Source: an uncultured Acidobacteriota bacterium (GTDB lineage Bacteria > Acidobacteriota > UBA6911). From it: DNA of 64,000 bases. The notes under the pieces were generated by a model. It was not told the DNA's origin. It worked only from the letters and a program-made list of their open reading frames with translations, and did no database searches. The position numbers and the translations under genes are program-made. The first letter of the stretch is position 1. The number at the start of each line of letters is the position of its first letter. This document shows positions 5,355 through 47,899 of this stretch, piece by piece. Where the stretch lies: positions 181,313-245,312 of the forward strand of contig CAWJKZ010000024.1 in assembly GCA_963843575.1 (NCBI GenBank). Reading direction: 5' to 3'.

Positions 5355-5366
5355 GCCTGAGGTAGC

Positions 5367-6593: not shown

Positions 6594-6746
6594 CGGGCCC
6601 CTGGCGCCCGCCCGGGGGGAGGCGGTCCCTTGCCCGGACGCATTCGTCCGGATGGTATCATTACCGGGATAATCCCGAGCCCGAACGGGGAGTTCGTTCC
6701 GACATTCTCCGCCGCCTCAAGTGCACTGCGGAAAAGGGAGGCATTT

Positions 6747-7172: not shown

Positions 7173-7178
7173 CCTGAT

Positions 7179-8930: not shown

Positions 8931-8976
8931 GAGTTCGTCAACCCCTTCGACTCGCGCCCAAGGAGGTACCGCGACG

Positions 8977-9979: not shown

Positions 9980-10003
9980 GGCACGGTTAAGGCCATAGAA
10001 ACG

Positions 10004-11401: not shown

Positions 11402-11404
11402 GAC

Positions 11405-11989: not shown

Positions 11990-12013
11990 AGGCGCCGGAG
12001 AAGGCAAGGCCGT

Positions 12014-12902: not shown

Positions 12903-12920
12903 CAAACTAAGGAAGATCAC

Positions 12921-23241: not shown

Positions 23242-23251
23242 GGTAACCGAT

Positions 23252-23848: not shown

Positions 23849-23850
23849 TG

Positions 23851-23887
23851 TGGAGTGCGCGCCTCGGCGCCTCGACGCCGCACTCCA
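23851..23887. repeat. Short REP-like hairpin (TGGAGTGCGCGCC...GACGCCGCACTCCA) between ESCRT-III-1 and Vps4-like-1
   Basis: Shares the arm motif GGAGTGCG / CGCACTCC with the other copies and sits in the 43-nt intergenic gap. Confidence 0.6.
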
Positions 23888-23891
23888 GAAG

Positions 23892-24998: not shown

Positions 24999-25022
24999 CG
25001 CCGCCCGCTTTGGAGTCGACCG

Positions 25023-25718
25023 ATGAGTGACCCCGTAAGCCACAGCCTCCCTGCCGCGCCGCGCTGGGGCGAACTCTTCCTCGAGCGGTTCGACCTGAAC
25101 GTGCGCGCCTGCGGCGCCGTCGTGCACCCGGCCGACGGGACCGTGCTCAAGGTCAATCCGAAGATGCTGGGGCAAACTTTCCGCCGGGACTTCGGCGAAG
25201 TGGTGCTCTTCTCGCTCTCCGCCGGCCTCATCGCCAGATCCCGCCTGCACCTGGCCGCCATCCGGCTGAACGACGGCGTCCCCGAGCCGGAACTCCTGCG
25301 CCGCGTGGGCGGTCCCGACGGACTCGATTTCGTGGGCGATCATTTTTACTCCGTCGGGTTGTTCGCGCCCGGCGGCTGGCCCGAAGAGTGGAAGGCACAG
25401 GCGGCGCTGCGCGGCAACGCGCTGTTCTACCTGGTCGAGAAGGGGGACGGAACCGGCTGGGGCGTGTTCGGCCCGGAAAACCCTCTCCTGCGGCTGTTCG
25501 ACCCCGAGACGACCATCGAGAAGGCGGCCCGGGCGGCGCAGGCCCTCGCGGGGCACCCACGGCTCGTGATGCCGGGGGACCAGGTCGAAGCCGGCGCGTT
25601 CGCCGCGGAACTGCGCCTGGACGCGGAGGCCCTGGAGAAAGCGCTGGCAGCTTCGCAGGGGCGCTTCCACAAGATGGAGTACAAGGGCAAGACCTACATA
25701 CAGCGGTCAATCCGGTAG
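25023..25718 (+). CDS. Hypothetical protein (231 aa) embedded in the ESCRT-like cluster
   Basis: Intact ORF with an RBS-like sequence upstream. No recognisable domain. Confidence 0.4.
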   Translation: MSDPVSHSLPAAPRWGELFLERFDLNVRACGAVVHPADGTVLKVNPKMLGQTFRRDFGEVVLFSLSAGLIARSRLHLAAIRLNDGVPEPELLRRVGGPDGLDFVGDHFYSVGLFAPGGWPEEWKAQAALRGNALFYLVEKGDGTGWGVFGPENPLLRLFDPETTIEKAARAAQALAGHPRLVMPGDQVEAGAFAAELRLDAEALEKALAASQGRFHKMEYKGKTYIQRSIR

Positions 25719-25726
25719 GAGGAATC

Positions 25727-26338
25727 ATGTCCGTGATGGAGAAACTCAGAGCGCTGTTCCAGAGCGAGAGTCTGCCGGACGAGACGCGCCAGCTTTACAG
25801 CAGGGCGTCCACGCCGCACGAACTCATCAAGGAGCTGGAGGGGTTGCGGGGCCGCAACGAGGTCGACCTGCGCGAGAACGAGCAGGAGCTGATCGGGCTC
25901 GAGAAGGCGGTCCTGCTGGAGGAGGACGCCGTGCGCCGGGGAGGGATGACCCCGACCGAAGAGACGATCGTGCTGCGCCGGATCGAACGGCTGCAAAAGC
26001 AGCGGGAGAACCTCGACCGGCAGGTCTCGATCTACAACGAAAACGTCAACCTGCACCTCAACCTCATCGCCAGAATCCAGGAGATGGAGGCGATGCGCTC
26101 CCGCGGGGTCGCCGAGGACCAGATCGACCGGCTCGTCGAGGATGTCGAGGGGCACGTCGAAGAGTACAAACGGGTGAGCATTGCGGCCGAAGGGGGCTCG
26201 ACCATGGGTTCGGCCATCGACCACTCGGCCGAGCGCCGCCGCCTGGACGAGATCAAGAACCGCATCCTGGCCAGGGACAGGGAACGTCCACGCGCCGCGG
26301 ACGAGGAACCCGTCGAACCCCCCAAAGACCTGGAGTGA
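25727..26338 (+). CDS. ESCRT-III (Snf7/CHMP)-like protein 2
   Basis: RBS TAGGAGG precedes the ATG at 25727. 203 aa, helical. Core ENEQELIGLEKAVLLEEDAVRRGGMTPTEETIVLRRIERLQKQRENLDRQVSIYNENVNLHLNLIARIQEME. The C-terminal RLDEIKNRILARD resembles the Vps2-type MIM1 (D/E-L-x-x-R-L-x-x-L-R-R-D). Confidence 0.65.
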   Translation: MSVMEKLRALFQSESLPDETRQLYSRASTPHELIKELEGLRGRNEVDLRENEQELIGLEKAVLLEEDAVRRGGMTPTEETIVLRRIERLQKQRENLDRQVSIYNENVNLHLNLIARIQEMEAMRSRGVAEDQIDRLVEDVEGHVEEYKRVSIAAEGGSTMGSAIDHSAERRRLDEIKNRILARDRERPRAADEEPVEPPKDLE

Positions 26339-26374
26339 TCCCAGCTATCACGATTCATCAAAGGAGATCGAATC

Positions 26375-26995
26375 ATGAACCTGATCGAAAAGCTGTTCAG
26401 CAAATCGCCCACCGCGGCGGACCTCCGGGTCCAGCTCAAGGAGATCGAAAGGGACCAGAAGAAGAAGCGGCGCGACCTCGACATCGTCGAGCGCAACAAG
26501 CAGCAGAAGGTCAAGGAAGCCGTCGCCGCAAAGAAGAATGGCAAACAGGAGGTGCTCCGGGACATCTTCCGGGAGATGCGGCAGATGGAGATCGAGAACG
26601 GCTATGCAAACGCCGACCTGCGCCGCCTGTCGCTGGCCAAGACCGCGCTGACGTCCTTCCTGCGCAAGATGGAGATGCTCGAGCGGAAGAAGGACCGGAA
26701 GAGCCTGCAGAACCTGATCGTGCGGTTCAAAGACAGCTCGATCCAGAAGGCGATCGACACGGCGGAAGTCGACGACGACACCTTCAACGACATGCTGGAA
26801 GAGATCCTCGGCGAAGAGGAGTTGTCGGTCACGCAGGGGAGGGTGAAAGAAGATACCGGGTTTGCCGACTTCGACCGGGCGATCGGCGAGATGGCGAAGG
26901 CCGAGGAGGCCGGTTCGGACGAAGAGGATCTCAACAAGTTCCAGGAAGAGATCGACAAGGCCGTCCGGGCGGAAAAAGTGCGGGACGAGGCGTAG
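26375..26995 (+). CDS. ESCRT-III (Snf7/CHMP2-like) protein 3
   Basis: 206 aa. N-terminal half LRVQLKEIERDQKKKRRDLDIVERNKQQKVKEAVAAKKNGKQEVLRDIFREMRQME parallels the CHMP2 helix-1/2 pattern (...AAKKGQKD...). Acidic C-terminus DDDTFNDMLEEILGEEEL...EEDLNKFQEEIDKAVRAEK. Confidence 0.7.
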   Translation: MNLIEKLFSKSPTAADLRVQLKEIERDQKKKRRDLDIVERNKQQKVKEAVAAKKNGKQEVLRDIFREMRQMEIENGYANADLRRLSLAKTALTSFLRKMEMLERKKDRKSLQNLIVRFKDSSIQKAIDTAEVDDDTFNDMLEEILGEEELSVTQGRVKEDTGFADFDRAIGEMAKAEEAGSDEEDLNKFQEEIDKAVRAEKVRDEA

Positions 26996-27019
26996 CAGGG
27001 GTTCTGGAGGCCTGATCAC

Positions 27020-28240
27020 ATGGACGTCGACCTGAGCGGGCCGCTGAAAGTGTCGCTGGACAAGACACTGGCCGAGGCGCGGGAGCTCGAAGGGCAGAAC
27101 AAGGGCCAGGAGGCGGCCGTCGCCTACCTGAAGGCGTCGAAGCTGATGAAGAGCTACGCCGACTACGCGCTCACCCGCGACGACCAGGTGCGGAGGCGCC
27201 AGAAGGCGCGGCAGTACCTGGAGTGGGCCGAGGCGCTCAAGGCCGGCAAGCGGCGGGTGGCCGCAGCCGCCGCGCCCGTGCGGGCTGCACCGGTTGCCGG
27301 CGGCGTCAAGGAGGCCGCCGCCGGGGACGAGGAACAGTACTCGCGCGACATCGCGTCGCTGATCCACCGCAGCAAGGTGACGTGGGACAAGATCGGCGGG
27401 CTCGAGGAGACCAAGCGTGAGATCAAGTTCACGTACGGGCTCGCGCTGGCCCGGAAACCGGAAGGGATGAAGCTCGCGGGGTGGCGCCGCATGCTCTTCT
27501 ACGGGCCGCCCGGGACCGGCAAGACGTTGCTGGCGGCGGCTACCAGCAACGGGCTGGGCGCGACCTTCTTCAACGTCAAGGCGAGCAACCTCCTGTCGAA
27601 GTACTTCGGCGAGTCCTCGAAGCTGATCACGGAGCTGTTCGACGCCGCCCGGAGCGAGGCCGACGAAGGCTTCGCCGTCATTTTCATCGACGAGGTCGAG
27701 TCGCTCTGCCTGCCGCGCGGCGACGGCTCGGAGAGCGGCGCCGAGAGGCGCGTCCTGTCGACGATCCTGTCGGAGCTCGACGGGCTGGCGGACAAGGGTG
27801 AGGACCGGTTCGTCCTGACCATCGCGGCGACCAACGCGCCGTGGGACCTCGACGACGCGGTGCTCAGCCGCTTTCAGAAGAGAATTTACATCCCGCTGCC
27901 CGACGCCGAAGCGCGCAAGTCGATACTCGAGATCCTGCTGCTCAAGGCGGGCCACACGCTGGACTACCCGCTCGGGGAGGTCATCGAGCACTCGGAGTGG
28001 TTCAGCGGGCGCGACCTGGAACGGCTGGCGAACCAGGCGGTCAACGTCATGGTCGAGGAACTCAACAGCCAGATTCCGCGCTGCGTCGACGCCGGGCGGG
28101 AGTCGATCGAGGGCTACCAGCTCAAGGTGCGCCCGCTCGGCAAGAGCGATTTCGACGAGGCGTTCCGGCGCATACGGGTGGACGTGGACCGGCTGAAAAA
28201 GCTGGAGACGCGCTTTCGCGAGTTCGCAGAGAGCAATTGA
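27020..28240 (+). CDS. Vps4-like AAA+ ATPase 2 (MIT-like N-terminus plus meiotic-clade AAA)
   Basis: Intact 406 aa. MIT-like helices (AVAYLKASKLMKSYADYALTRDDQVRRRQKARQYLEWAEALK). Walker A FYGPPGTGKTLLAAA, pore loop LSKYFGESSKL, Walker B VIFIDEVESL, and a C-terminal helix LKKLETRFREFAE of Vps4_C type. Confidence 0.75.
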   Translation: MDVDLSGPLKVSLDKTLAEARELEGQNKGQEAAVAYLKASKLMKSYADYALTRDDQVRRRQKARQYLEWAEALKAGKRRVAAAAAPVRAAPVAGGVKEAAAGDEEQYSRDIASLIHRSKVTWDKIGGLEETKREIKFTYGLALARKPEGMKLAGWRRMLFYGPPGTGKTLLAAATSNGLGATFFNVKASNLLSKYFGESSKLITELFDAARSEADEGFAVIFIDEVESLCLPRGDGSESGAERRVLSTILSELDGLADKGEDRFVLTIAATNAPWDLDDAVLSRFQKRIYIPLPDAEARKSILEILLLKAGHTLDYPLGEVIEHSEWFSGRDLERLANQAVNVMVEELNSQIPRCVDAGRESIEGYQLKVRPLGKSDFDEAFRRIRVDVDRLKKLETRFREFAESN

Positions 28241-28258
28241 GGACTTCCGGGGAATCCG

Positions 28259-29230
28259 ATGGCGGTTTGCGGTCAGTGTAAACAGGACGGCGGGGAAAAG
28301 AAGTTCTGCACCAACTGCGGCGCGCCCATGGTTGAGCCGGCCGCGCCCGCTCAGAAAGCGCAGGCGTCCGGGGTGCGGCTTGGGGACATCGGGTTCGTGA
28401 AGGGGAACATCACCGACTCGAGCACGGTCACGACGACCACCACCAACGTCGGGCAGATCAACATCGGGATGCCTGCCGGCACGTCCCCCGCGGCCCCGTG
28501 TTGCCCCATCTGCGGCGAGTACCCGGAGCTGCGCGAGAGCTTCCGCTGCATGGCGTGCGGGCGCGACTACATCTGCAAGAGGCACCGCCACCCCGAGCAA
28601 AGGATCTGCACCGCGTGCGTCCGCCGGCGCGAGATGGTGTGGGTGCCGCCGGGCGGATCGTTCGACGGGTTCTGGATGGACCGTGCGAAGGTGACCTGCG
28701 AGGCCTACCGGCGATTCCTGGTGGCCAATCCCGGCTGGCAGAAAGGGAGCGTCGATGGGAAGCGCCACGACGGCTACTATCTCAGGGATTGGAACGGGAA
28801 CGACTACCCGGCCGGGAAGGGCGGCCAGCCGGTGGTCTACGTCAGCTGGTACGCGGCCCGCGCCTGCGCGGAGTGGTCCGGGAAGCGGCTCCCGACCGAG
28901 GCCGAGTGGGAGTACGGCTGCCGCGCGGGAACGAACACGGCCTACTGGTGGGGGGACGAGTTCGCCCTGGGGCGGGCCGCCGAAGCCAACCCTTGGGGAC
29001 TGCGCGGCATGTCGGGGTGCCTGTGGGAGTGGACGTCATCGCCCTTCAGCGACGACCCCGCGGATGCGGGGCCGCGCAGCTGCCGCGGCGGCTCGAAATG
29101 GGGGGATGCGGCCGAAGCCCGCTCCTCCGCGCGCAGCGGCCGCGCCCCGAGAGGCTGCAGCGTGATGGTCGGTTTCCGGTGCGTCGAGAGCGGAGACTGT
29201 CCAACGACGAAGCCACTCGACCAGATGTGA
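28259..29230 (+). CDS. Zinc-ribbon protein with a C-terminal FGE-sulfatase (SUMF1/EgtB/PvdO-type) domain
   Basis: N-terminal CGQC...CTNCGAP ribbon plus a second Cys cluster. The C-terminus carries FGE-sulfatase hallmarks (VYVSWYAARACAEWSGKRLPTEAEWEYGCRAG...RGGSKW). Confidence 0.65.
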   Translation: MAVCGQCKQDGGEKKFCTNCGAPMVEPAAPAQKAQASGVRLGDIGFVKGNITDSSTVTTTTTNVGQINIGMPAGTSPAAPCCPICGEYPELRESFRCMACGRDYICKRHRHPEQRICTACVRRREMVWVPPGGSFDGFWMDRAKVTCEAYRRFLVANPGWQKGSVDGKRHDGYYLRDWNGNDYPAGKGGQPVVYVSWYAARACAEWSGKRLPTEAEWEYGCRAGTNTAYWWGDEFALGRAAEANPWGLRGMSGCLWEWTSSPFSDDPADAGPRSCRGGSKWGDAAEARSSARSGRAPRGCSVMVGFRCVESGDCPTTKPLDQM

Positions 29231-36377: not shown

Positions 36378-39300
36378 CTAACGATCGAATATCTCCTGGA
36401 GCTCCTTTACCTCGTGGTTGTTCTGCTTCTTCAGCTCGAAATGCCATTTCCAGACCTCGTAGATCGCCGGATAGACCAGCAGCTCGAGCAGGAAGGAGGT
36501 GAAGACGCCGCCGATGAGGGGAGCGCCGATGCGCTTCATCACATCCGAGCCCGTGCCTGTGGCCCACAGGATCGGCACCAGGCCGATGAAGTCGGTGGCC
36601 ACGGTCATGAACTTCGGGCGGATGCGCTTGACGGCGCCGTGCACGATGGCCTCGCGCAAGCCCGGCCAGCGTTCCCAGGCGGCCCTCCTTCTTCGCCTGT
36701 TCGTAGGCGAGGTCGAGGTACAGCAGCATGAAGACGCCGGTCTCGGCGTCCACGCCCAGCAGCGCGATCAGCCCGACCCACACCCCGATGCTCATGTTGT
36801 AGCCGAGCAGGTACAGGAACCAGATCGCGCCGATGGCCGAAAACGGCACCGCCAGCACCACGATCAGGGTCTTGACGACGGAGCGGGTGTTGAGATAGAG
36901 CAGCAGCAGGATGAGGAAGGCCGGTGACGGGCAGCACCAGCCAGCAGGCGGTTGTTGACGCGTTCCATGGCCTCGTACTGGCCGCTCCAGGTGATGGCGA
37001 AGCCGGGAGGCAGGCTCACCTTGCCGCGGACAACTTCCTGGGCCTCGCGCACGTAGCTGCCGGGATCGCGGCCGGCCAGGTCCACGTAGACGTAGCCGGT
37101 GAGCAGCCCGTCCTCGTCGCGGATCATGCCGGGCCCCGACGCGGGCTTGATCTCGGCCAGTTCCGAGAGCGGGATCTGCGGCTTTCGCCGGCCGGGACGA
37201 GCACGCGCCCGAGGCGATTCCAGATCGGAGCGGAAATCGCGCATGTAGCGGACGTTGACCGGGTAGCGCGCGCGTCCCTCGACGGTGGTGGTGATGTTCT
37301 CGCCGCCGATGGCGTTCTGCACCGCCGCCTGCGCCTCTTCGATGGTCAGCCCGTAGCGCGCCAGGGCGTCGCGGTTCCATTCGAAATCGAGGAAATAGCC
37401 TTCGGCGGTCCGCTCGGAGAAGACGCTGCGGGTTCCCCGTACCGAGGGCAGCACCGCCTCGACCTGCGCGCCGATTTCCTGGATGGTCTCCAGGTCGTCG
37501 CCGTGGATCTTCAGGCCGACCGGGGTGCGCATGCCGGTGCTCAGCATGTCGATGCGGGCCTTGATGGGCATGGTCCAGGCGTTGGAGACTCCGGGGAGCT
37601 TCACGGCGGCGTTCAGCTGATCGACGAGCTGCTCGGGCGACATGGTGTCGGGCGTGAAGTGCCGGAAGAGCGGCTTGAGCCACTCCGGCGACCACGAGGA
37701 ATACCAGGTCGGCACCTTGCGCCACTCGGAGCGCGGCTTGAGGGTGATGACCGTCTCGAGCATCGACAGCGGCGCCGGATCGGTGGAGGTTTCGGCGCGG
37801 CCGGCCTTGCCCAGCACGCGGTCCACTTCCGGGAAGGTCTTGATGAGCCGGTCGGTGACCTGGAGGACGCGCTGGGCCTCGCCGATGGAGATGCCCGGCA
37901 TGGTCGAGGGCATGTAGAACAGCGCCTCTTCGTACAGCGGCGGCATGAACTCGGAGCCGAGCGAGAAGAACACCGGGATGGTGACCGCGAACAGGACGAC
38001 CGGCGCCGCGATCACGGCCCACTTGTGGCGCAGGGACCAGCGGCAGGCCGGCTCGTAGAGCCGGATGAGGACCCGGCTGACGGGGTGGTGGTCCTCGGAG
38101 TGGATGCGCCCGACGAACACGGCGTTGGCCGCCCTGGCCAGCCAGCGCGGCCGGAAGCTGAAGTTGCGCAGGTGAGTGAAGGTGAGCCGCAGCGCCGGGT
38201 CGAGCGTGATGGCCAGCACGGCGGCCACGATCATCCCGAGGGTCTTGGTGTAGGCCAGCGGCTTGAACAGCCGCCCTTCCTGCGCTTCCAGGGCGAACAC
38301 GGGGATGAAGGAGACGGCGATCACCAGCAGGGCGAAGAAGCTCGTGCCGCCGACCTCCTTGACCGCCGCGATCACGACTTCCTTGTAGTCGCCGCGGCGC
38401 CCGGAGGCCTCCCAGGCCTCCAGCTTCTTGTGCGCCTGCTCCACCACCACGATGGAGGCGTCCACCATGGCGCCGATGGCGATGGCGATGCCGCCGAGCG
38501 ACATGATGTTGGCGGTGATGCCCATGGCGCGGAACGGGATGAAGGCGATCAGCACCGCGATCGGGATGGTGATCATCGGGATGAGCGCGCTGGGGATGTG
38601 CCACAGGAACAGCAGCACGATCAGCGACACGGTGATGATCACCTCGATGACGGTGGACTTCAGGGTGTCGATGGAGTGGTGGATCAGCTGCGGAGCGGTC
38701 GTAGATGGGGACGATCTTGACGCCGGCGGGAAGGCCGGGCTCGATCTGGCGGATCTTCTCCTTGACCCGGTCGATGACGTCGAGCGCGTTCTCGCCCTGG
38801 CGCATGACGATGATGCCGGAGACGGCTTCGCCGGTGCCGTCGAGGTCGGAGACGCCGCGCCGCATGTCGGGCCCGAGGGTCACCTGCCCGATGTCTTTCA
38901 CGCGGATCGGGGTGCCGTTTTCGCTGGCGGAGACGACGACGCTCTCGATGTCGGCGACGGACCGGGCGTAGCCGCGGCCGCGGACCATGTACTCGGCGCC
39001 GCCCAGCTCGATCATGCGGCCGCCGGTTTCGCTGTTGCTGCCGCGGATGGCGTCGACGACCTTGTTGATGGGGATGTTGTAGGCCTGGAGCCGGTTCGGG
39101 TCGACGTTGACCTGGTACTGCTTGCCGAAGCCGCCGATGGGCGCGACTTCGGCGACGCCGGGGACGGACTTGAGGTGGTAGCGCAGGTACCAGTCCTGGA
39201 GCGAGCGCAGGTCGGCCAGGCTGTGCTTGCCCGACTTGTCCTCGAGCACGTACTGGTAGATCCAGCCGAGGCCGGTGGCGTCGGGGCCGAGTTCGGTCTT

Positions 39301-39672
39301 GGACCCTGCCGGCAGGGACTGCAGGACGCCGGAGAGGTACTCGAGCGTGCGGGTGCGCGCCCAGTAGATGTCGGTGCCGTCTTCGAAGATGACGTAGACG
39401 AAGGAGTAGCCGAAGTCGGAGAAGCCGCGGACGGCCTTGACCTTGGGCGCGCCGAGCATGGCGGTGACGATCGGGTAGGTGACCTGGTCCTCGACGATGT
39501 CGGGGCTGCGGTCCCAGCGGGAGTAGACGATGACCTGGGTGTCGCTGAGGTCGGGGATGGCGTCGAGCGCGACGTTGTTCATCGACCACCAGCCGTAGAT
39601 GGCGGCTACGGCTACGAGGGTGAGGACGATGAGCCGGTTGCGCGCGGAGAAATCGATGATGCGCGAAATCAT
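36378..39672 (-). CDS. cusA: Heavy-metal efflux RND pump CusA/CzcA family (several frameshifts)
   Basis: The N-terminal 330 aa (MISRIIDFSARNRLIVLTLVAVAA...DRSPDIVEDQVTYPIVTAMLGAPKVKAVRGFSDFGYSFVYVIFEDGTDIYWAR) are continuous. The middle 592-aa fragment (36864-38642) and the C-terminal fragment (36378-36659, ...GAPLIGGVFTSFLLELLVYPAIY) are both HME-RND like. Confidence 0.85.
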
Positions 39673-41150
39673 TCAGACGTGTGCGCCATCCCGTTCATGT
39701 CCGGAGCCGCCATCTTCTTCTGGACATATTTCCCGGGATTCGCTTCAAAGCTCTTCTTGCACAGCTCGGAGCAGAAGTAGTAGGTCTCGCCTTCGTACTG
39801 GGTCTTGAAGACGTCCGGCGACTTCGGATCGACATCCATGCCGCAGACGAGGTCCTTTACGGTCTTCGGCTTCTCGCGTCGTCGCAGCAGCCGATGTCGC
39901 TCGGCGAGCTTCATGCGGCTTTCGGAATCGATCAGGAAGTTGCCGGAGACGACGATGCGCTCGCCCGGCTCGAGGCCGCTGCGTGATCTGGACGCGATCG
40001 CCGAGCCGCCACCCGGTTTCGACCAGCCGGGGTTCGAAGACCCCGTTCCCGCGTTCGACGTAGACGGTCTTCCTGCGGCCCGAGTCGATCACGGCCTCGG
40101 CCGGCACCGTGATGGCCGCCGGCGTGTCCACCTGAGCTCGACATCCACGAACATGTCGGGCAACAGAACATTACCGGGATTGTCGAGTTCGAAGCGGGTT
40201 TTCAGGGTGCGCGTCTGCGGATCCAGCTGCGGCAGTGCGTCGCTCAGGCGCGCCTGAAATTCGCGGCCCTGGTACCGGACCGTGGCCATGGCGCCCGGCT
40301 TCACGAACTCGCGGTCTTTCTCGAAGATGTCCGTCATCACCCAGACGTGGCCGATGTCGGCGATGCGATAGAACTCCGTGCCCTTGTCGAACCGCTGGGT
40401 CGGCGAGATGTTCCGCGTCAGCACGAAACCGGAGACCGGCGAGTAGATGTTGATCTGGGGCGAGGCCACGCGCGTCCGGTGGATTTCCTCGATCTGCAGG
40501 TCGCTCATGCCCAGGCCGCGCAGCGAGTCGATCGGGAACATCGGGTTCGCGCTCCCGGACGTCCTTATGGACGCCTGGGTGAAATCAGTCGTCTGCTTCG
40601 GCAGCGGGTCCTTCGAGGGGATGCTCAGCAGGAACAGCCGCTCTGTATACAGGAGGTCCTTCTGGTAGTAGGACGCGAGGAACTGGTTCTTCTTGACGAA
40701 GCGGCCGACGGTGTTCTGGCCGAGATCGACGATCCAGCCATCCGCCGCCGCAACGATGCGGTAAAGCCGCTGGTCGTCCACGGCTATGCGGCCCGGCACT
40801 CGCAGCATGTTGGAGGACGAATCGAGACGGACCTCGTCCGTGCGGACGCCGATCAGCTGTTGCCTTGCGGCGCCGATCTGAACCATCCCCGGAGTGTCGG
40901 GACTGTCCGGATTGGGCTTGTGGTCCGGTTTCGCCGGCATCCGCCGGTTCCAGGCGCATGCCGCAGATGGGGCAGTCCCCGGCGTCGGTCGGATCTGTAT
41001 TGGGGATGCATGGGGCAGGTGTAAGCGACAGCCTGCTCACGCGAAGCTGAAGACAGTGGCGGGATCTTCTTGCCGGTTGGCCAAATATCCGGCAAAAAAG
41101 ATGCCGATCGCCACGAAGAGAGCGGTCATAAATCTTGCGGGCGTCGTCAT
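39669..41150 (-). CDS. cusB: RND membrane-fusion (periplasmic adaptor) protein CusB/CzcB family, with an N-terminal CPMHP metal site and a C-terminal YHS/TRASH-like domain (frameshifted)
   Basis: RBS GGAGA precedes the ATG at 41150. N-terminal TM segment, then YTCPMHPQ. An MFP barrel/lipoyl body lies in 40089-40940. C-terminal CGMDVDPKSPDVFKTQYEGETYYFCSELCKKSFEANP. Overlaps the cusA start by 4 nt. Confidence 0.75.
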
Positions 41151-41230
41151 ATCTCCTCTCGGTAGAAGAAGTCAATTTAAGGAGGGGGGAGGGATTGCTC
41201 CCTCCCCTCGGACACTATCGAACACACCGG

Positions 41231-44200
41231 TTACGGCGTGCGAATCGGGAACGGCAGCGCGTTCGTCCAGGCGGACGAGCCGCCGAGGTTGTTGTTCGCC
41301 CGGATCCGGTAGTAGTAGACCGTGTTGCGATTCACGGTCTGAATTAGGCTTCTGGCGGAGCCTGTAGGCGTGAAGGTCGCCAGGCCCGTCGTGAAGCCGA
41401 GGTTGGTGGCACGCTGGATCGTGAAGTTGGTCGGATTGGCAGCGGCCGCCCAGATGAGCGTCGCCGTGTCCTTGTTGCCGTTAGCCCGGGCAACCGCGAC
41501 TGTGAAGCTGGTCGGCGCTGCCGGAATCGTCGGGATTGCCACCGGGGATGCCAGCGTCGCGTACGCCGAAGGTCCCGCTGCGTTGACCGCCTTCACCCGG
41601 TAGAGGTAGCTGTTACCGGCCGCGACGTGGTATCGACGTAGGTCACGTCACCGGTGCTGTTCCTCGGCCCCGGTGCGGCGATCTGCGCGAAGTTGGTGCA
41701 AGTCGTCGCCGGCGCTACGAACGAGCAGCGCTCAACCACGAAGCCGGTTTCGTTGGTCGCGTTGTCCCTCCACGTCAGGCTCACCTGCGGCCCGCTCTGC
41801 ACCGTCGCCCGTCGGGTTCGTCGGAGCCGCGGGCCCCGTCGCCGCGGTACCGACAAGAACAGTAAGCACGCCGGACACGGAGTCGGCAGCCATCGTCGGG
41901 AAGCCTGCGATGCTGGTGTCGCCGACGGTCTGGCCAATCGCCCGCACGCGGTAGAAGTAAGTCACGTTGTTGACGTTCCCGATCCTGTCACCATACGCCC
42001 TGATGTTCGCTGCGACATTGACAGTCCTCAGGCCCGTGTTGAAGTTGGCATCCGAGGCCCTTTCGATGGCGAACTGGGCGACAGTCAGTGAGGGGCTGGT
42101 CCAGCTCAGGTTGACCGTCTTGTTACCACCGTTGCCGGTGATGGTGAACGCGGTGCTTAGCGTAGGCGCCGTCGGCGGAACCGCAAACACCAGTGAGTGC
42201 ATGAAGTCCATCTCTTCGTGGGACAGGATGTGGCAGTGCCACACGTACTCCCAGCCGAAGTTGACGGTGTGGTTCAGGATCTCCGGGATGGGGATTGCCG
42301 TTCGGGTCGAACCATCCGGCCGGCCCCGGCGGTGGAAGCGTGGCTCCGGGGGGCAGCGTCGGATCGATCAACCGCACGCTGTTGGGGAGCTCGAACGGAA
42401 TCTCAGTCGGAGTCGGAACGGTCGGCCTCAGCGCAAGGAAGGTGATCTCCAGCGGGTTGATAAAGACGGTGTCCTTCCAACCCACGTTCTGGGCGTCAAC
42501 AGCCCGCCCGGCTGGGAACGCTCCCGGCGCGACCTGCCCGTCCTGCCCGACGCGGCTGATGACCTGGGCAGTAAACAGGTGCGTGTGGATGGGATGAGTG
42601 TCCACGCCGTTGTGGAAGATTCTCCAGATCTGCGTGCCGTCGGCCAGCTGCCCGATCTTCGTGGTTTCGAGCGAGCCCTTGACGACGTCGGTCGGCGGGG
42701 ACGAGAACGGGAACGGGAGGATGAATCCCAGAGCCGAATTCGGGTTCGTCATCCCGAGCATGCCGCTCATCCGGCCGAACTGCGTGTCGTACACGCCGCC
42801 CATCTCGTCGTGCATCGCCTTCATCTCGAAGGGGATGGTGACGGCGGGCTGGAGGTTCCAGGCGTTGGTCACGCTGTCGTAGCCGAGCGGCTGGAAGTTC
42901 TTCTGCGTGTCCCCGATGTTGAGGACGTACTGGGACGCACCCGTCGGGAACGGCAGGTTGTCGTAGGCGGAGTTGTAGGCCGCCTGCGGGATGATGGATG
43001 GGATCCTGGCTGACCTCGAAGACGCCGCGCTTTGTTGCTGTCTTGGCAAACACGGCCTGGAGGTTGGCTAGCGTGACGTCCGGGGTCGGCGTCGTCACCG
43101 TCGTTCCCACCTGGATCTGCATGATCGTCCGGGTGTTGGGCCCGTAGCCCGGCAGCGTGTTGGGCGCGCCGCCGCTGTCCATCAGGTTCCCGTCTCCGGT
43201 GTAGTTGTCGTACGGCGCGGCGCCGGCCGGGACAGGCGCCGGGGAGTCGTTGTAGAGGATCAGCGTCTTGCCTGCGTAGGCGCTGAAGTCAACGATGACA
43301 TCCGAGCGCTCCGCTGCCATGAGGAACAGCGAGTGCTGGTTGACGATGCCGAAATTGAAGTAGGCCGGGTCAAGGTTGTACCCGATCGGCTGCTGCGGGA
43401 TCACGACCGGCGCCGGCGTGAAACCGCCCTCGGTGCCGATCTGGATCCACGAGCGGTCCTGCCGTTGTCGGATCGGGAACGCCGCTCGGCGTGTCGGCGT
43501 ACTGGTTAGCGGCGGTGCCAAGGGCAAGACTGACCGGGACCATCCGGACCTCGGTGCAGTCCCCCACTGGGACGGCGCCGGTGCAGAGAGGTGCTGGCGC
43601 CGCCGCGGTCGCCGTGGTGTCCGCCTTCTTGTCCGCAGCGACGTAGAGCTGCAGGTTCTGGGCCCGGTCGTTGGATGCGTTCAGGATGCGGAACCGATAG
43701 GCCTTTGGTTCCACCGTCAGGGATGGGTAAGCGGTTCCGTTCACGATGGGCGTGTCCAGAAAGCTCTCGCCCGGGATGGAGGGATTCGGCACGCCGGGAT
43801 TAAACGGCGGTTCCCACGGCGCGGTGCACTGGGCCGGGGGGGTTGGGATCGGGATGCAATCCAGCTGCCCTGGACCGCCGCATGGTGCCGGTGTCCAGCA
43901 GTCCTGGTCGAAGTACGGGTTCGGCACGGGGCCGACATCAATGCATCCCACCGGGCCGCCGTTGACGCACGTCGGGGTGGGGGGGTTGAACCACGGCCCG
44001 TAGAACCAGCGGCCGAAGGGGTTCGTTCCGGTCGGATCCCACGGATTCGTGACCGTCATGTAGACGTGTGGGTACCAGAAATCGCCCGTGACGGCTGTCC
44101 CCGGCGCCGCCCCTGATCCCCAAGCCCACGTCGGGTCCTGGGCGTAAACCGTTTCGGCGTCCACGAACGTCTTGTCCTGGATGACCAGCGGGATGCCGAT

Positions 44201-45736
44201 GTCAGGGAGAACCTTGAGCCCGTTGGGGTTCACGCCCGAAACGTTGCTGCCGGAGATCATGTCGGTCTCGACGGCATCCGTGATCACGTATCCCGCCGCC
44301 TCGCCGGCATACACGTTGAGGCGCGTGATGCCGTGGGCGTGATCGTGGTAGAACTGCAGGCGGGCGCTCTGGGCGTTGGTGTAGAAGAACGTCATGCACC
44401 CGCTGCTCTTCTTGGCAGCACTGTCGCCGGGAAGCCCCGGGGCCAGAGGATTGGCGTCGCAACCTGTGCCCATGTCCGGCACGTTGCGCGCGCTGACGCC
44501 CGCCGGGTACGGTGTGACTTCACTCGCCGGCGTGATCCACTGGTGGGTGTTGCCGTCGCTGATCCACACGGTGTTGTTGCCGTGGAGGTGGATGGTCGCC
44601 CGGTTCTGCGTGTACTTGTCGTTTGCCACGCCCGGCAGCGCGGGTCCGATCCCGGAACCCGGAACCGTCTCGTCCACCGGCAGCAGGAGGTTTCCGCCGC
44701 TGGCACTGTTAGGAAGCAGGTTGTAGAACGTGATGCGAACCGGCTTCGCGGCACCCGCCGCGCCTAACCCAGCTACCTTGCCCAGGGCCACTATGGTCGG
44801 CCCAAGGTAATGGGGATTATCGATGGCAAACTTCCCACTGCCGACGTCAATGTGCTTGCTGACAAGGGGCGGATTCATGGCCGCCATTGCAGCCAGTAAC
44901 CCAGGTGTCTCCAGTTGTACGTAACCGCGGAGCTTCGTCGCCGGCAGGTCCGAGTGCATCTTTTCCTCATACAGGACCAGGCCGATCGAGTAACAGTCCG
45001 CCTGCTGAGTGCTATATGTGCACGGCTCGTTAACCCCAACCGGGATGTACTGGCCCTGTATCCCAGGCTTGACCGGATCCTGGTCGATGTTGTTGGCCCC
45101 GGCAGGTCCAAGCCCAGGAAGAGTGTCAACGAACTTGCGAATCCCGCCACCGGTAGGCGTGCCGATGATCGCGTCGCCGACGAAACCGGTGCCGTCTAGG
45201 TCAGTGATGTTAACGACTGGAGCCATGTACCCGGCGCCGAAACCGTTAATCGTGAAACCGGTAATGACCCCGCCCGTTACCTGGGCCGACACGTCTGCCG
45301 CGGTGTAGCACGCCGGGGCAGCGGTGGGGCACTGCGGTAGATAAGCATCGTCGACAGTGACGGTAGGCGCGGTGTACCCCGTGCCTCCGTCCACGACCGT
45401 GATGGTCCCGACGGGACCCTTCGGGAGCGGACTGAACGCCCAGTTGCCGTAGGGTCCGAAATAATGCGGCACCCCGCCTGGAGCGGGGACCTGCGCCGCC
45501 ATCGGGTTTATGGCTGTCAGGGCGGCGATCCCAGGCTTCAGACCGCGCTTGGCGGCGTCCTTTGCCGCCTTCTTCTGCACGGACGGCGGGATTCTCTTGA
45601 ATTTCTCCTTGTAGACTTGGTCACGTGTGACCTTGTCCTTCTTGGGCTTTTGTGCGTAGTTGACGCCGGTCGCCAGCGAAACGGCAACCGCCATCATTAT
45701 CAGCCGCACAAAAATCATGTATCTGCGACTAGTCAT
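41231..45736 (-). CDS. Giant secreted multicopper oxidase of about 1500 aa with C-terminal fibronectin-III-like domains (frameshifted)
   Basis: RBS and ATG at 45736 with signal peptide MTSRRYMIFVRLIMMAVAVSLATG. Copper-site motifs HLHG (ATIHLHGNN), HDHAHG, HTHLFTAQV and HCHILSHEEMDFM. Terminal FN3-like segments (SLTWRDNATNETGFVVERC; TNFTIQRATNLGFTTGLATF...YYYRIRANN). Confidence 0.8.
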
Positions 45737-45781
45737 ACAGTGTCTCCTCAATTTGTCAACCTCGATGCAACTTCCACATTC

Positions 45782-45793
45782 ACGCATATGCAG
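45782..45793. promoter_or_regulatory. Perfect 12-bp palindrome ATGCAGCTGCAT about 45 bp upstream of the MCO start (candidate operator)
   Basis: The sequence is identical to its own reverse complement and sits in the MCO-cusBA leader. Confidence 0.25.
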
Positions 45794-46131
45794 CTGCATG
45801 CTTTATTCCCTTGTCCCAAAATCGCTTCCGGGAATCTGCACCCTGGAGGGGGCCAGGTAATCGTCTGGGCCGGAATGACCGGCGGCAAGCTTTGAACTCG
45901 CCCTAGGGGAGCCTGGAGGGGCTTTCATCACCATGCGATTCTCCATGAGTGGGTGTTTTATTACGGAGAGGTCAAGACAAACAATTCGTGGAGTTACCCA
46001 TTCTTGAATGGGTATAACTACTCAGTGGGCCTTGAGTGGGGATCTTTGAGATTCTTAGGGTCCTTTGAGACTTTGAGGTAAAGCTAAAATTCGCCTCGAA
46101 GACTCTAACTAACGGCCCGTCCCTCGCGCTC

Positions 46132-46299
46132 AAGTGGGTCCGGGCTTCAGCCCGGACGCAGTTTGCGGTCGCTATGCAGGGCAGGTGGAGCTGTATGGAA
46201 CGGATTTAAAGACGTCCGGGCTGAAGCCCGGACCCACTTGGTTTACGGGCAGGGCGGACGGTTAACCGTTGGACGGCCTCTGAAGCCCGGACCCACTTG
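46132..46299. mobile_element. MITE-like element, full copy: arm, about 55-bp spacer, inverted arm, about 40 bp, and a third partial arm
   Basis: AAGTGGGTCCGGGCTTCAGCCCGGACG at 46132-46158. Its reverse complement is at 46213-46239. Partial CTGAAGCCCGGACCCACTTGG at 46279-46299. Architecture matches the 55168 copy, including the shared GGTT.AACCG.TGGACG.CCTCTGAAGCCCGGACCCAC segment. Confidence 0.75.
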
Positions 46300-46321
46300 G
46301 TTTTTCTAATGCGGGATTTTG

Positions 46322-47899
46322 TCAGTGGCGGGGGGTGGCGATGCCGACCGTCAGGCTGCCGTCCGCGTCGACGTCGCCGACCACGAGGTACACGTTCGCG
46401 CCGGGCGCGATCGTGACGGTGTTGGTCAGGGTCCCCATGGCGTTGTCGAGGTTGAGCGCCAGGCTCGAGTTCAGCACGACCGCGTTGACGCGCGCGGACC
46501 GTCCCTTGGCCGTGGCGACCTCGGATTCGAGCGACGGGGCGAATTCGAACGGGGTGCCGGCCAGGCTGCCGTCGCCAAAGCCTTTCAGGACGACGCCCCG
46601 GTTGGTGAAGTCCATGCCCAGAAGCTGCAGCCTCCCGGTCCCGGTCGGGTCGGCGGCCAGCACGTAGTCGCGGTAAACGTCGAGCCAGCCCGTTTGGTAC
46701 CTGAACTGGTTGCCCGACTTTCCGTACAGGAGGGTCAACACTCCGGTCCCGACGCCCGACACCGCGACGTCCATGAAACCGTCGCCGTTGAAATCGGCGG
46801 CGGCAATTGAGCGGACGCCCTTGCCGGTTTCGACCTGAAACTGCTCTTCGTAGTTCCCGTCGGCGCCGGCCATGAAGAAGCGCAGCAACCCCTGGAACGG
46901 GACCTGCACGGCGGCGTCGGGGAGCCCGTCGTTGTTGAAATCCGCGACGGCAATCGATACCGAGAACTCGGTCGGGATCGCTGAAGGGGAGCACGTCGAA
47001 ATCGCGCAAGCCCAGCTCGGCCGATTCGAACACACCGTCGCGGGGGTGGCTGACCCGCACCGATTCCAGCGTGCCTCCCTCCCCGACCCGCAGCATGTAG
47101 CTCGGCCGGACCGTCACGGTCCCACCCGGCCCCGTGGCTGCGACCTGGGGAGTGGCCGTTTCCGTGGTGGCAGTCTCCTTTGCGGCGGTTTCGGTCGCCT
47201 CGGTCGTCTTGGTCTCGGTGGTCTTGGTTTCCGTCGTGGTCTCGGTCGCAGGGCGAAGCGTCGCCCAGCGACTCGCGCGCGCGCCGGAACGGGTTTTCGT
47301 CCTGCTCTTCGGCCGGTTCCGAAATCCCCGTCGATTCCACCCGGCCTTTCGCCGAACATGTGCGAGAAGAAGTTCCCGAACGAACCCCCGATGCCGGACT
47401 GCATCATCCGCAGGATTTCCTTGTCGGAGTAGCCCGACGTGCGCAGGGACGGGGCAGGGGGGCCGAATACGGGGATGTTTCCGTTCATGCGCCTGATCGA
47501 GAGCTCGCCCTCGGCGTTACCCAAGGCCATGGCGTAGAGGAAGGGGTCTCCCTGCGCCGTCAGCATCGCTCGGCTGACCGCGGCCTCGAAGGGATCCTCG
47601 ACCGGGGATTCGGCGACCTCGCCGAAACGCGGATTGCGGACGGGTTTGAGCGCGTCGTAAATCCCGGGCTGCTGGTCGGGCAGGGCCGCCCGGGGCGCGA
47701 GCGCCAAGTCCTCCGCGCCGGCCTGAAGCGGTTGTGGCTCGACCGGGGATACCGTCAAGTGGTAGCAGAAGATGGCGAGTGCCGGGGCCAGAACGAATGC
47801 AGCCAGGATGAGGGCGGAGGGACGCAGACGTGTATTGAGAAACCGAGGAGCAGACGCCAGCTTCGGTCGGAAGCGTGCCGAATTCAAAACGAACTCCAA
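46322..47899 (-). CDS. Secreted FG-GAP/VCBS-repeat protein with a Thr/Glu-rich linker (frameshifted; N-terminal boundary uncertain)
   Basis: Repeated DFNNDGLPD, DFNGDGFMD and GDVDADG motifs in 46322-47035. The upstream fragment has a hydrophobic N-terminus and a TTETKTTE low-complexity linker. Confidence 0.6.

What the first reader, a model, noticed from the sequence alone, without database searches (positions are those of the whole stretch)
36378..45793. Copper-resistance island lacking cusC/cusF and a regulator, with a giant multicopper oxidase carrying FN3 domains and a perfect palindrome operator candidate
The MCO, cusB and cusA are collinear on the minus strand. CusB carries both an N-terminal CPMHP site and a C-terminal YHS/TRASH-like Cys motif, so it has dual metal sensing. 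The MCO is about 1500 aa, roughly three times a typical CueO/laccase. It ends in at least two fibronectin-III-like domains, suggesting surface or matrix attachment. No outer-membrane factor, CusF or CusRS/CueR is encoded nearby. A perfect 12-bp palindrome ATGCAGCTGCAT lies about 45 bp upstream of the MCO start.
Basis: partly seen in the sequence, partly recalled or inferred. Interest (0 to 1): 0.5.

Follow-up and report, generated by a model that had tools for sequence, protein, structure and literature searches.

The report
Giant copper oxidase with CusBA pump
This is a real, conserved three-gene module in a soil Acidobacteriota genome (a 1500-residue secreted multicopper oxidase, a CusB-like adaptor and a CusA copper pump); its many frame breaks are sequencing errors and the flagged palindrome is a chance match, so the finding is mostly ordinary.

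Summary
The genes are there, on the minus strand: MCO (45736..41231), cusB (41150..39669) and cusA (39672..36378). All three are broken by 14-16 single-base frameshifts. The whole window has about 38 such breaks, including 5 in guaB, and 33 are +1 insertions, so they are assembly errors and not gene decay. After correction the proteins are 1500, 492 and 1096 aa with no internal stops.

- **MCO:** one gene. It has a CotA-type three-cupredoxin core with large insertions, an N-terminal beta domain and three FN3 domains. Its family has thousands of mostly unstudied members.
- **CusA:** keeps the E. coli Cu(I)/Ag(I) methionine triad.
- **CusB:** has an N-terminal HMBD and a C-terminal YHS domain.
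- **Missing partners:** no cusC, cusF or copper regulator was found among the window ORFs scanned.
- **Synteny:** MCO with cusBA recurs in about 20 of 28 related loci; the flanks do not.
- **Palindrome:** one of 26 perfect 12-mers in the window (26.7 expected) and absent upstream of orthologs. It is not a credible operator.
- **Conserved non-coding element:** a GGGGAGGGA-GCAA-TCCCTCCCC hairpin just after the MCO stop codon.

Most likely this is an envelope copper-detoxification module. An OmpB/MofA-like oxidase role remains open.

The parts
41231..45736 (-). Giant multicopper oxidase gene, 1500 aa after frame correction. It has an N-terminal signal peptide (MTSRRYMIFVRLIMMAVAVSLATGVNYA), an N-terminal beta domain, a CotA-type three-cupredoxin core (aa ~245-1185) with large insertions, and three FN3 modules. 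Assembly frameshifts: extra bases at 43453, 42996, 42290 and 41806; one missing base at ~41626/41627.
   Evidence: tblastn of intact orthologs changes frame at these points. The stitched protein has no internal stop. It aligns colinearly with CotA 24-506. The model of homolog P0036 matches CotA with target-normalised TM 0.78-0.81. Copper ligands are HLH383-385, HDH464-466, HPIHTH1047-1052 and HCH1166-1168/H1172, and they are invariant in a 70-sequence alignment.
41240..42175 (-). Three C-terminal FN3-like modules of the MCO: aa 1187-1289, 1301-1397 and 1404-1498.
   Evidence: An HMM built from the family FN3 region gives three hits (5.7e-27, 1.6e-17, 9e-20). Titin FN3 matches in PDB reach E 4e-8.
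45788..45799 (.). Perfect 12-bp palindrome ATGCAGCTGCAT. It overlaps an upstream in-frame ATG and lies 51 nt before the true start. Judged to be a chance occurrence.
   Evidence: The window holds 26 perfect 12-mers against 26.7 +/- 5.0 in shuffles. The palindrome is absent upstream of orthologs.
41186..41207 (-). Conserved hairpin GGGGAGGGA-GCAA-TCCCTCCCC. It lies 23 nt after the MCO stop and 35 nt before the cusB ATG. It has terminator-type architecture but no U-tract here.
   Evidence: It occurs once in the window, with 0 expected. The 9-bp stem with a GNRA loop is predicted in the window and in 5 orthologous spacers. GGGAGGG-N6-CCCTCCC occurs in 19 of 30 related loci, always just 3' of the MCO stop and on the MCO strand. 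In metagenomes, 62 of 124 instances follow an MCO/FN3 C-terminus.
39669..41150 (-). cusB-like periplasmic adaptor, 492 aa after correction. HMBD is at aa 43-69 (~40942-41023) and YHS at aa 430-477 (~39717-39860). Assembly frameshifts: extra bases at 41054, ~40983/40984, 40926 and 39978; one missing G at ~40131. Its stop overlaps the cusA start (ATGA).
   Evidence: Three-frame views are. Pfam gives HlyD_D23 1e-48, HMBD 1.9e-13 and YHS 2.4e-13. E. coli CusB (PDB) matches at E 5.5e-26 over aa 13-415.
36378..39672 (-). cusA, a heavy-metal RND pump, 1096 aa after correction. Assembly frameshifts: extra bases at 38691, 36941, 36922 and 36657. A probable compensated pair lies in the stretch translated as PRARARPGRRKP.
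   Evidence: NCBIfam TIGR00914 (CusA/CzcA) scores 1063 bits against a cutoff of 701. E. coli CusA (3K07/3T51) matches at E 1.4e-300 over the full length, with residues aligned to M573, M623 and M672 all Met. Junctions are and the ortholog alignment.
46131..46299 (.). Three copies of a REP-like hairpin repeat (core GTCCGGGCTTCAGCCCGGAC) in the 590-bp spacer upstream of the MCO. It is a genome-wide repeat, not specific to this cluster.
   Evidence: Inverted repeats of 28 nt at 100% identity. There are 8 sites in the window, at 29240, 46138, 46214, 53304, 53360, 55173, 55249 and 58705, with 0 expected by chance.

Best explanation
The region is an intact, co-oriented three-gene module for handling copper in the cell envelope, in an Acidobacteriota metagenome-assembled genome. 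The apparent breaks are single-base assembly errors.

**Shown**
- Gene 1 encodes a secreted CotA-type three-domain multicopper oxidase. It has all four copper-ligand motifs, large insertions, an extra N-terminal beta domain and three FN3 modules.
- Gene 2 encodes a CusB-type adaptor whose N-terminal Cu(I) site is an HMBD (Cys/His/Met). It also carries a C-terminal YHS domain.
- Gene 3 encodes a CusA ortholog with the Cu(I)/Ag(I) methionine triad. Its start overlaps the cusB stop (ATGA), which implies translational coupling.
- The MCO-cusBA linkage is conserved in many genomes.

**Inferred**
- CusBA removes Cu(I) from the periplasm or cytoplasm through a TolC-like outer-membrane factor encoded elsewhere.
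- The HMBD and YHS domains of CusB do the metallochaperone job that CusF does in E. coli.
- The oxidase, exported and possibly held at the envelope by its FN3 tail, oxidises Cu(I) to the less toxic Cu(II), or oxidises copper-reducing compounds.
- A conserved hairpin between the MCO and cusB sets the ratio of MCO to pump transcripts, acting as a partial terminator or as a 3'-end stabiliser.
- The palindrome has no role.
For: **Frame errors**
- There are 38 stop-less frame switches in the window. 33 are of the +1 type and 30 lie outside the cluster.
- Stitched guaB (5 breaks) matches Pfam IMPDH at 3.9e-123. T2SS E, F, K and D are broken in the same way.
- The corrected MCO, CusB and CusA have no internal stops. 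Each frame segment stays 85-93% identical to orthologs.
- Orthologs in other Nanopore-only MFD MAGs break at different positions. Other, non-MFD assemblies (e.g. L005, L010, L013, L027) are unbroken in cusA. The MFD method is Flye plus one Medaka round (PMC12313526).

**Identities**
- CusA. CusB. MCO.

**Linkage**
- cusBA lies within 10 kb of the MCO in about 19 of 27 genome loci, 12 of them as MCO>cusB>cusA. It does so in L028 as well.
- The flanking genes are not shared.

**Hairpin**
-.
Against: - No copper regulator and no outer-membrane factor is present to tie the module to copper stress. The two-component system next to the L028 ortholog is KdpDE-like, not CusRS.
- The MCO lacks the Met-rich region of the cuprous oxidases CueO and PcoA (1.7% Met). 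It scores far below the NCBIfam CueO cutoff (32.6 against 525).
- Its T1 axial position is Phe, not Met, which is typical of high-potential laccases.
- More distant family members sit next to an FKBP isomerase, a cytochrome c or a second MCO. This resembles the mofABC/ompB clusters described for metal oxidation and reduction (PMC5566968).
- No expression or activity data exist.
Confidence: 0.6

Rival explanations
1. The MCO is an OmpB/MofA-type extracellular oxidoreductase acting on Mn, Fe, humics or phenolics, and is not a copper-resistance enzyme. CusBA is co-encoded either to deliver Cu(I) to the periplasm for metallating this four-copper enzyme, or to buffer the copper that this enzyme's biogenesis requires.
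For: - The architecture (large, secreted, MCO plus FN3) matches the published description of Geobacter OmpB (PMC5566968).
- Relatives carry an FKBP isomerase (MofB-like) directly after the MCO in L006, L013, L024 and L152, and a cytochrome c (MofC-like) in L151.
- There is no Met-rich region.
- The T1 axial residue is Phe in the acidobacterial clade.
- The family is huge and occurs in many lineages, with or without cusBA.
- A complete T2SS cluster lies in the same window, and OmpB is reported to be T2SS-secreted (title of Mehta et al. 2006, listed in the references of PMC3495685).
Against: - Homology to GSU1394 or MofA beyond the general MCO fold could not be tested, because no sequences were available.
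- The OmpB ExxE motif is absent (0 ExxE).
- The window has no FKBP or cytochrome c gene next to the MCO.
- CusA-type pumps are known as exporters for detoxification, not as metallation suppliers (established knowledge).
Confidence: 0.25
2. The cluster is a decaying, non-functional remnant (pseudogenes) of a copper-resistance island.
For: As written, the sequence has 14-16 frameshifts in 9.4 kb. The public gene call is truncated at 788 aa (P0001). The flanking 6.8 kb (29.4-36.1 kb) has none.
Against: - The same kind of break hits the housekeeping gene guaB and the T2SS genes.
- 33 of 38 breaks are +1 insertions, opposite to the deletion bias of real bacterial pseudogenes (established knowledge).
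- The corrected frames have no nonsense codons and no large deletions.
- Each frame segment remains 85-93% identical to orthologs.
Confidence: 0.04
3. The palindrome ATGCAGCTGCAT is the operator of an unlinked copper-responsive repressor or activator that controls the MCO-cusBA operon.
For: It is a perfect dyad in the 5' region, 51 nt upstream of the start codon.
Against: - It is as frequent as chance allows.
- It is not conserved upstream of six orthologs, and no <=1-mismatch copy lies near any MCO start in 30 loci.
- Upstream DNA is not alignable between loci apart from the RBS and start.
- It does not resemble the CueR, CsoR, CopY or CusR boxes (from memory, not tested with tools).
Confidence: 0.03

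Closest known systems
E. coli CusCFBA Cu(I)/Ag(I) efflux system
   Same: - CusA is a full-length ortholog (E 1e-300) that conserves the M573/M623/M672 triad.
- CusB has the same adaptor fold, and its N-terminal metal site sits at the homologous position.
- The cusB-cusA order and their coupling are the same.
   Different: - There is no cusC, cusF or cusRS here.
- The CusB Met3 site is replaced by a Cys/His/Met HMBD, and a C-terminal YHS domain is added.
- An MCO gene is fused into the operon upstream.
Bacillus CotA / bilirubin oxidase-type three-domain multicopper oxidases
   Same: - The order of three cupredoxin domains is the same, as are all T1 and T2/T3 copper ligand motifs.
- The best sequence and fold matches are to CotA (target-normalised TM ~0.8).
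   Different: - The core is about 940 aa, against 513 in CotA, because of five large insertions.
- There is an N-terminal extension of about 240 aa, consisting of the signal peptide, a linker and a beta domain.
- There are three C-terminal FN3 modules.
- The T1 axial position is Phe instead of Met.
Geobacter OmpB/OmpC and Leptothrix MofA (large secreted multicopper proteins)
   Same: - It is a very large exported MCO with FN3 domain(s).
- Relatives sit next to an FKBP isomerase (like MofB) or a cytochrome c (like MofC).
   Different: - Direct sequence relatedness was not tested here.
- There is no ExxE motif.
- In this window and in most acidobacterial relatives the partner genes are cusBA, not mofBC.
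CueO / PcoA periplasmic cuprous oxidases
   Same: It is an exported MCO encoded alongside copper-efflux genes, so a role in Cu(I) oxidation is plausible.
   Different: - There is no Met-rich Cu(I)-binding insert.
- The NCBIfam CueO score is far below the cutoff.
- The protein is three times larger.
- The axial ligand is Phe.
Cupriavidus SilB-type adaptors with built-in metallochaperone domain
   Same: The adaptor carries an extra metal-binding domain, which can replace a separate CusF (concept). There is a PDB hit to SilB (5A4G, E 3.6e-14).
   Different: The extra domains here are HMBD and YHS, not a CusF-like OB fold.

Membership tests
CusA/CzcA heavy-metal RND pumps (TIGR00914) | Full-length profile match above the curated cutoff | tested here: met
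   1063 bits against a cutoff of 701, covering positions 1-1086 of the protein.
CusA/CzcA heavy-metal RND pumps (TIGR00914) | Cu(I)/Ag(I) three-methionine site (E. coli M573, M623, M672) | tested here: met
   All three aligned positions are Met in the phmmer alignment to 3T51/3K07.
E. coli-type CusCFBA system | Adjacent outer-membrane factor CusC, chaperone CusF and CusRS regulator | tested here: not met
   No OEP, CusF or heavy-metal two-component-system domains were found in the window ORFs scanned. Relatives such as L028 lack them too.
CusB-type membrane fusion protein | MFP barrel-sandwich/beta-barrel domains and similarity to CusB | tested here: met
   HlyD_D23 at 1e-48. E. coli CusB matches at E 5.5e-26 over aa 13-415.
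CusB-type membrane fusion protein | NCBIfam CusB (PRK09783) score above its cutoff, and the N-terminal Met3 Cu(I) site | tested here: not met
   112.9 bits against a cutoff of 390. The Met site region aligns with YTCPMHP...CPICGM (HMBD) instead of PMYP...FMDM.
Three-domain multicopper oxidase (CotA/bilirubin oxidase type) | Four His-rich copper motifs plus the T1 Cys | tested here: met
   HLH, HDH, HPIHTH and HCHILSH are present. They are invariant across 70 homologs.
Three-domain multicopper oxidase (CotA/bilirubin oxidase type) | Three cupredoxin domains in the CotA arrangement | tested here: met
   Tested on homolog P0036 (49% identical to the N-terminal 761 aa of the window MCO; pLDDT 77.7, pTM 0.84). 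Foldseek to CotA gives E 1e-32 and target-normalised TM 0.78-0.81. The window protein aligns colinearly with CotA.
Three-domain multicopper oxidase (CotA/bilirubin oxidase type) | Axial Met at the T1 copper | tested here: not met
   HEEMDFMH: Phe occupies the position of CotA M502. This is shared by the acidobacterial clade, while other clades have Met.
CueO/PcoA cuprous oxidases | Met-rich Cu(I)-binding region and a family profile match | tested here: not met
   Met is 1.7% of residues, and the best 40-aa window has 6 Met. NCBIfam CueO scores 32.6 against a cutoff of 525.
CueO/PcoA cuprous oxidases | Twin-arginine (Tat) signal peptide | tested here: inconclusive
   The N-terminus reads MTSRRYMIF..., with RR conserved in many orthologs but KR/RK in others. 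There is no Pfam TAT_signal hit.
OmpB/OmpC/MofA large secreted multicopper proteins | Large exported MCO with fibronectin type III domain(s) | tested here: met
   1500 aa, with a signal peptide and three FN3 modules. The family description comes from PMC5566968.
OmpB/OmpC/MofA large secreted multicopper proteins | Sequence homology to GSU1394, GSU2657 or MofA beyond the generic MCO motifs | not testable with these tools
   No reference sequences were available. Two homolog searches returned no Geobacter- or Leptothrix-named proteins among the best 120. The afdb50 fold library was unavailable.
OmpB/OmpC/MofA large secreted multicopper proteins | Neighbouring mofB-like FKBP isomerase or mofC-like cytochrome c, and the ExxE motif | tested here: not met
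   Absent in the window, with 0 ExxE. FKBP or cytochrome c are present next to relatives in L006, L013, L024, L152 and L151.
Regulator operator (palindrome at 45788-45799) | More frequent than chance and conserved upstream of orthologs | tested here: not met
   26 observed against 26.7 expected. It is absent from ortholog upstream regions.
Intrinsic (Rho-independent) terminator (hairpin at 41186-41207) | GC-rich stem-loop followed by a U-tract | tested here: inconclusive
   The 9-bp GC-rich stem with a GCAA loop is present. The tail in the window is CCUCCUUAAAUU, with no U-run. Many orthologs (L002, L005, L013, L014, L016, L018, L023, L024) have T7-9 after the same stem. The consensus terminator scan did not list it.

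The most novel reading that the evidence does not exclude
The acidobacterial MCO-hairpin-cusBA unit is a distinct and widespread extracellular oxidase system that has not been characterised. In this reading:
- A high-potential (Phe-axial) giant MCO is tethered by its FN3 modules.
- It depends on a dedicated CusBA pump for copper supply or copper buffering, rather than serving resistance.
- The sequence-invariant GGGGAGGGA-GNRA-TCCCTCCCC hairpin at its 3' end is a new cis-acting RNA element, for example a protein-recognised stabiliser or attenuator. It would be shared with genes for other secreted FN3 and cytochrome proteins.
Probability: 0.15. Interest if true: 0.6.

Novelty: new member of a known kind. 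Interest (0 to 1): 0.3.

Why it matters
- **For annotation.** The cluster shows how Nanopore-only MAGs truncate long genes. The public call for this MCO is 788 of 1500 aa. Such breaks can be mistaken for pseudogenes or for exotic architectures.
- **For biology.** The tight and recurrent linkage of a giant FN3-bearing multicopper oxidase with a CusBA pump in soil Acidobacteriota and Desulfobacterota suggests a common envelope copper or oxidase module in abundant, uncultured soil bacteria.
- **Testable handles for follow-up.** The clade-specific Phe at the T1 site, and the invariant 3' hairpin.

None of this overturns current understanding.

Tried and rejected
- **Palindrome as operator.** Rejected by the shuffle count and by lack of conservation.
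- **Sigma-54 promoter upstream of the MCO.** There is no -24/-12-like match in 45737-46322. The sigma-70 and terminator scan gave nothing above chance.
- **Island boundaries.** No tRNA and no bracketing direct repeats were found. GC content is not distinctive.
- **Flank synteny.** Neighbouring window genes are not found next to the module elsewhere.
- **A conserved regulator.** The L028 two-component system is not conserved across loci and has no hit in the window. It is KdpDE-like. The window's ECF sigma factor has an ordinary zf-HC2 anti-sigma partner and no CorE-like Cys-rich tail.
- **Source contig look-up for P0001.** Not on record.
- **Rfam.** It has no family for the hairpin or for the 5' region.
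- **afdb50 fold search** (to name OmpB-like matches). The library was unavailable.
- **Second homolog search seeded with a deltaproteobacterial member.** No Geobacter-named hit appeared.
- **ESCRT-III/Vps4 reading of the 23-28 kb AAA/coiled-coil cluster.** Pfam gave only AAA domains, so it was dropped.

Full report
**1. What is in the sequence**

Between 36378 and 45736, three genes lie head to tail on the minus strand. As written, none of them is an open reading frame. The longest ORFs are fragments: 809 aa for the MCO N-terminus, and 592 and 283 aa for pieces of cusA and cusB.

tblastn with intact orthologs shows each protein continuing in another frame at sharply defined points. Three-frame views of each junction show single-base events:
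- **MCO:** extra bases at 43453, 42996, 42290 and 41806, and one missing base at about 41626.
- **cusB:** extra bases at 41054, about 40983, 40926 and 39978, and one missing G at about 40131.
- **cusA:** extra bases at 38691, 36941, 36922 and 36657. A probably compensated pair lies in the stretch 'PRARARPGRRKP'.

Skipping these bases gives proteins of 1500, 492 and 1096 aa with no internal stop codon.

**2. The frameshifts are assembly errors, not gene decay**

- A codon-usage Viterbi path over the whole window finds 38 same-strand frame switches with no stop codon at the junction. 30 of them lie outside the cluster, and 33 are of the +1 (inserted base) type.
- The stitched 436-1679 product is IMP dehydrogenase, with 5 breaks (Pfam IMPDH 3.9e-123 across the junctions).
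- The T2SS genes E, F, K and D are broken in the same way.
- A housekeeping gene with five frameshifts, an insertion bias opposite to the deletion bias of real bacterial pseudogenes (established knowledge), and 85-93% identity to orthologs within every frame segment all point to consensus errors.
- The nearest relatives are Acidobacteriota MAGs of the Microflora Danica long-read set. Those MAGs were assembled from Nanopore reads only, with Flye and one Medaka round (PMC12313526). Their orthologs break at other positions, while other, non-MFD assemblies (e.g. L005, L010, L013, L027) are unbroken in cusA.
- The public gene call for this MCO (P0001, 788 aa, 100% identical) is the truncated fragment.
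- That the window itself comes from that dataset is an inference. The contig could not be looked up.
- The breaks are patchy. There are none in 20.8-36.1 kb or in 51-64 kb, and I cannot explain this.

**3. The oxidase**

The corrected 1500-aa protein starts at the ATG at 45736. This start has a GGAG ribosome-binding site that is conserved in orthologs, and the N-terminus is a signal peptide with an SRRY motif.

It matches CotA colinearly, from CotA residue 24 to 506, over its own residues ~245-1185. All copper ligand motifs are present and are invariant in 70 homologs.

An AlphaFold model of the 1198-aa homolog P0036 (pLDDT 77.7, pTM 0.84) superposes on CotA and bilirubin oxidases with target-normalised TM 0.78-0.81. 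The core is enlarged by five insertions, preceded by an extra beta domain and followed by FN3 modules. The window protein has three FN3 modules.

Single-ORF orthologs of about 1500 aa exist, so the protein does not split into two genes.

The family is very large. There are at least 2242 and at least 5973 hits in two capped searches. Lengths among the listed hits that carry the C-terminal copper site run from about 1120 to 2060 aa, and C-terminal adhesion-type modules vary. Members occur in Acidobacteriota, Desulfobacterota, Chloroflexota, Firmicutes and some archaea, and are usually annotated only as 'multicopper oxidase domain-containing protein'.

Two details argue against a CueO-like enzyme:
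- There is no Met-rich region.
- In the acidobacterial clade only, Phe occupies the T1 axial position (HEEMDFMH, against HEEMDMMH elsewhere).

**4. The pump**

CusA is a full-length ortholog of E. coli CusA (E 1.4e-300; TIGR00914 at 1063 bits). Met is present at the positions of M573, M623 and M672.

CusB aligns with E. coli CusB over aa 13-415. The region of the CusB Met3 Cu(I) site is replaced by an HMBD (YTCPMHP...CPICGM), which is also found at the N-terminus of the Legionella CopA ATPase. A YHS domain follows the adaptor core. The L028 ortholog has the same HMBD...YHS architecture, so this is a standard variant.

The cusB stop and the cusA start overlap (ATGA).

**5. Context**

No outer-membrane factor, CusF, MerR/CueR or CusRS-type gene was found in the window ORFs scanned.
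- Downstream lies a convergent Ser/Thr kinase gene.
- Upstream on the same strand lie an FG-GAP protein, a TPR protein and an ECF sigma/anti-sigma pair. None is shared with related loci.

The MCO-cusBA association, by contrast, is strong. cusBA lies within 10 kb in about 19 of 27 genome loci, 12 of them as MCO>cusB>cusA. It also does so in a JGI metagenome contig, where an integrase follows the module and a KdpDE-like two-component system precedes it.

More distant family members have other partners. An FKBP isomerase follows directly in L006, L013, L024 and L152. A cytochrome c follows in L151. A second MCO is present in L007 and L152. Paenibacillus has none of these. FKBP and cytochrome c neighbours are what the literature describes for Leptothrix mofABC and the Geobacter ompB cluster (PMC5566968).

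**6. The palindrome**

ATGCAGCTGCAT is real, but it is one of 26 perfect 12-mers in the window (26.7 +/- 5 expected). It overlaps a spurious upstream ATG. It is absent upstream of all six orthologs whose starts could be mapped. Upstream DNA does not align between loci except at the RBS and start. It is not a credible operator.

**7. The element that is conserved**

A hairpin, GGGGAGGGA-GCAA-TCCCTCCCC (41186-41207), lies 23 nt after the MCO stop.
- The pattern GGGAGGG-N6-CCCTCCC occurs in 19 of 30 related loci. It is always on the MCO strand, always just after the MCO stop, in one or two copies, and nowhere else in those loci of up to about 22 kb.
- This holds even where the next gene is not cusB. 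It also holds in loci from Myxococcota and Armatimonadota, whose MCOs are only 40-55% identical.
- The loop varies (GCAA, GCCA, GCGA, GAAA, UUCG) while the stem does not.
- Many copies are followed by a T-run, which is classic terminator architecture. The window copy is not.
Half of the instances follow an MCO/FN3 C-terminus. The rest follow other, mostly secreted-looking proteins, including FN3-ended proteins and c-type cytochromes.
- Distant family members use unrelated terminators.
- Rfam has no matching family.

I read it as a terminator or 3'-stabiliser hairpin that separates MCO from pump expression. Why its stem sequence is invariant is unexplained.

**8. Verdict**

The most likely function is envelope copper detoxification: a CusBA pump using an unlinked outer-membrane factor, plus an exported oxidase. 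Confidence is about 0.6.

The main rival (about 0.25) is an OmpB/MofA-like extracellular oxidase for which CusBA handles the copper supply. Pseudogene decay and a palindromic operator are each unlikely (<=0.05).

This is a new member of known kinds and is of modest interest.

Noticed in passing
window 41186-41207 (-); L001-L030 just 3' of each MCO stop; L031-L150: A sequence-invariant hairpin, GGGGAGGGA-GNRA-TCCCTCCCC, follows the MCO stop in 19 of 30 related loci across several phyla. It also follows other secreted-looking genes (FN3-ended proteins, c-type cytochromes) in metagenomes. The stem never varies while the loop does. There is no Rfam family for it.
   Followed up: partly
whole window; e.g. 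436-1679 (guaB), 3631-6588 (gspE/F), 8609-9855 (gspK), 13024-15566 (gspD), 17943-20813, 46323-47723: About 38 stop-less frame switches, 33 of them single-base insertions. They are patchy: none in 20.8-36.1 kb or in 51-64 kb. The cause is very likely consensus error in a Nanopore-only assembly. The patchiness is unexplained.
   Followed up: yes
window 29240, 46138, 46214, (46280), 53304, 53360, 55173, 55249, 58705: A REP-like intergenic repeat with the hairpin core GTCCGGGCTTCAGCCCGGAC, often in inverted pairs 56-76 bp apart. Three copies sit in the spacer upstream of the MCO. One pair gave a spurious sub-threshold Rfam mir-1422 match.
   Followed up: partly
MCO aa 1172-1178 (window ~42220-42200, -); L001-L030: The residue aligned with the T1 axial Met of CotA is Phe (HEEMDFMH) in the window and in all acidobacterial-clade orthologs. 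It is Met (HEEMDMMH) in deltaproteobacterial and other clades. This suggests a higher-potential T1 copper.
   Followed up: partly
L006 6985-7767, L013 10444-11199, L024 16628-17455, L152 12029-12721; L151 11879-12346; L007 19203-22004; L152 12975-16187: Relatives of the MCO are followed by an FKBP-type peptidyl-prolyl isomerase, a small cytochrome c or a second large MCO. This echoes the published mofABC/ompB gene clusters.
   Followed up: partly
window 3631-15566 (+): A complete type II secretion cluster (gspE, F, G, H, I/J, K, L, M, D). It is preceded by an ECF sigma/anti-sigma pair at 1861-2998. It could export the giant MCO, as reported for Geobacter OmpB, but T2SS clusters are common.
   Followed up: no
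window 23232-29144 (+): A cluster of two AAA+ ATPases (23845-24990 and 27012-28223) interleaved with three ~200-aa coiled-coil proteins. It is followed by a zinc-ribbon/FGE-sulfatase-domain protein. Pfam recognises only the AAA and FGE domains, and the function is unknown.
   Followed up: partly
window 39669-39672: The cusB stop and the cusA start overlap as ATGA, which implies translational coupling of adaptor and pump.
   Followed up: no
L028 18983-23876: In the closest intact relative, the MCO-cusBA module is followed by a phage-type integrase and a recA/imuB/dnaE2-like cassette. This hints that the module can sit on mobile DNA. Nothing comparable is in the window.
   Followed up: no
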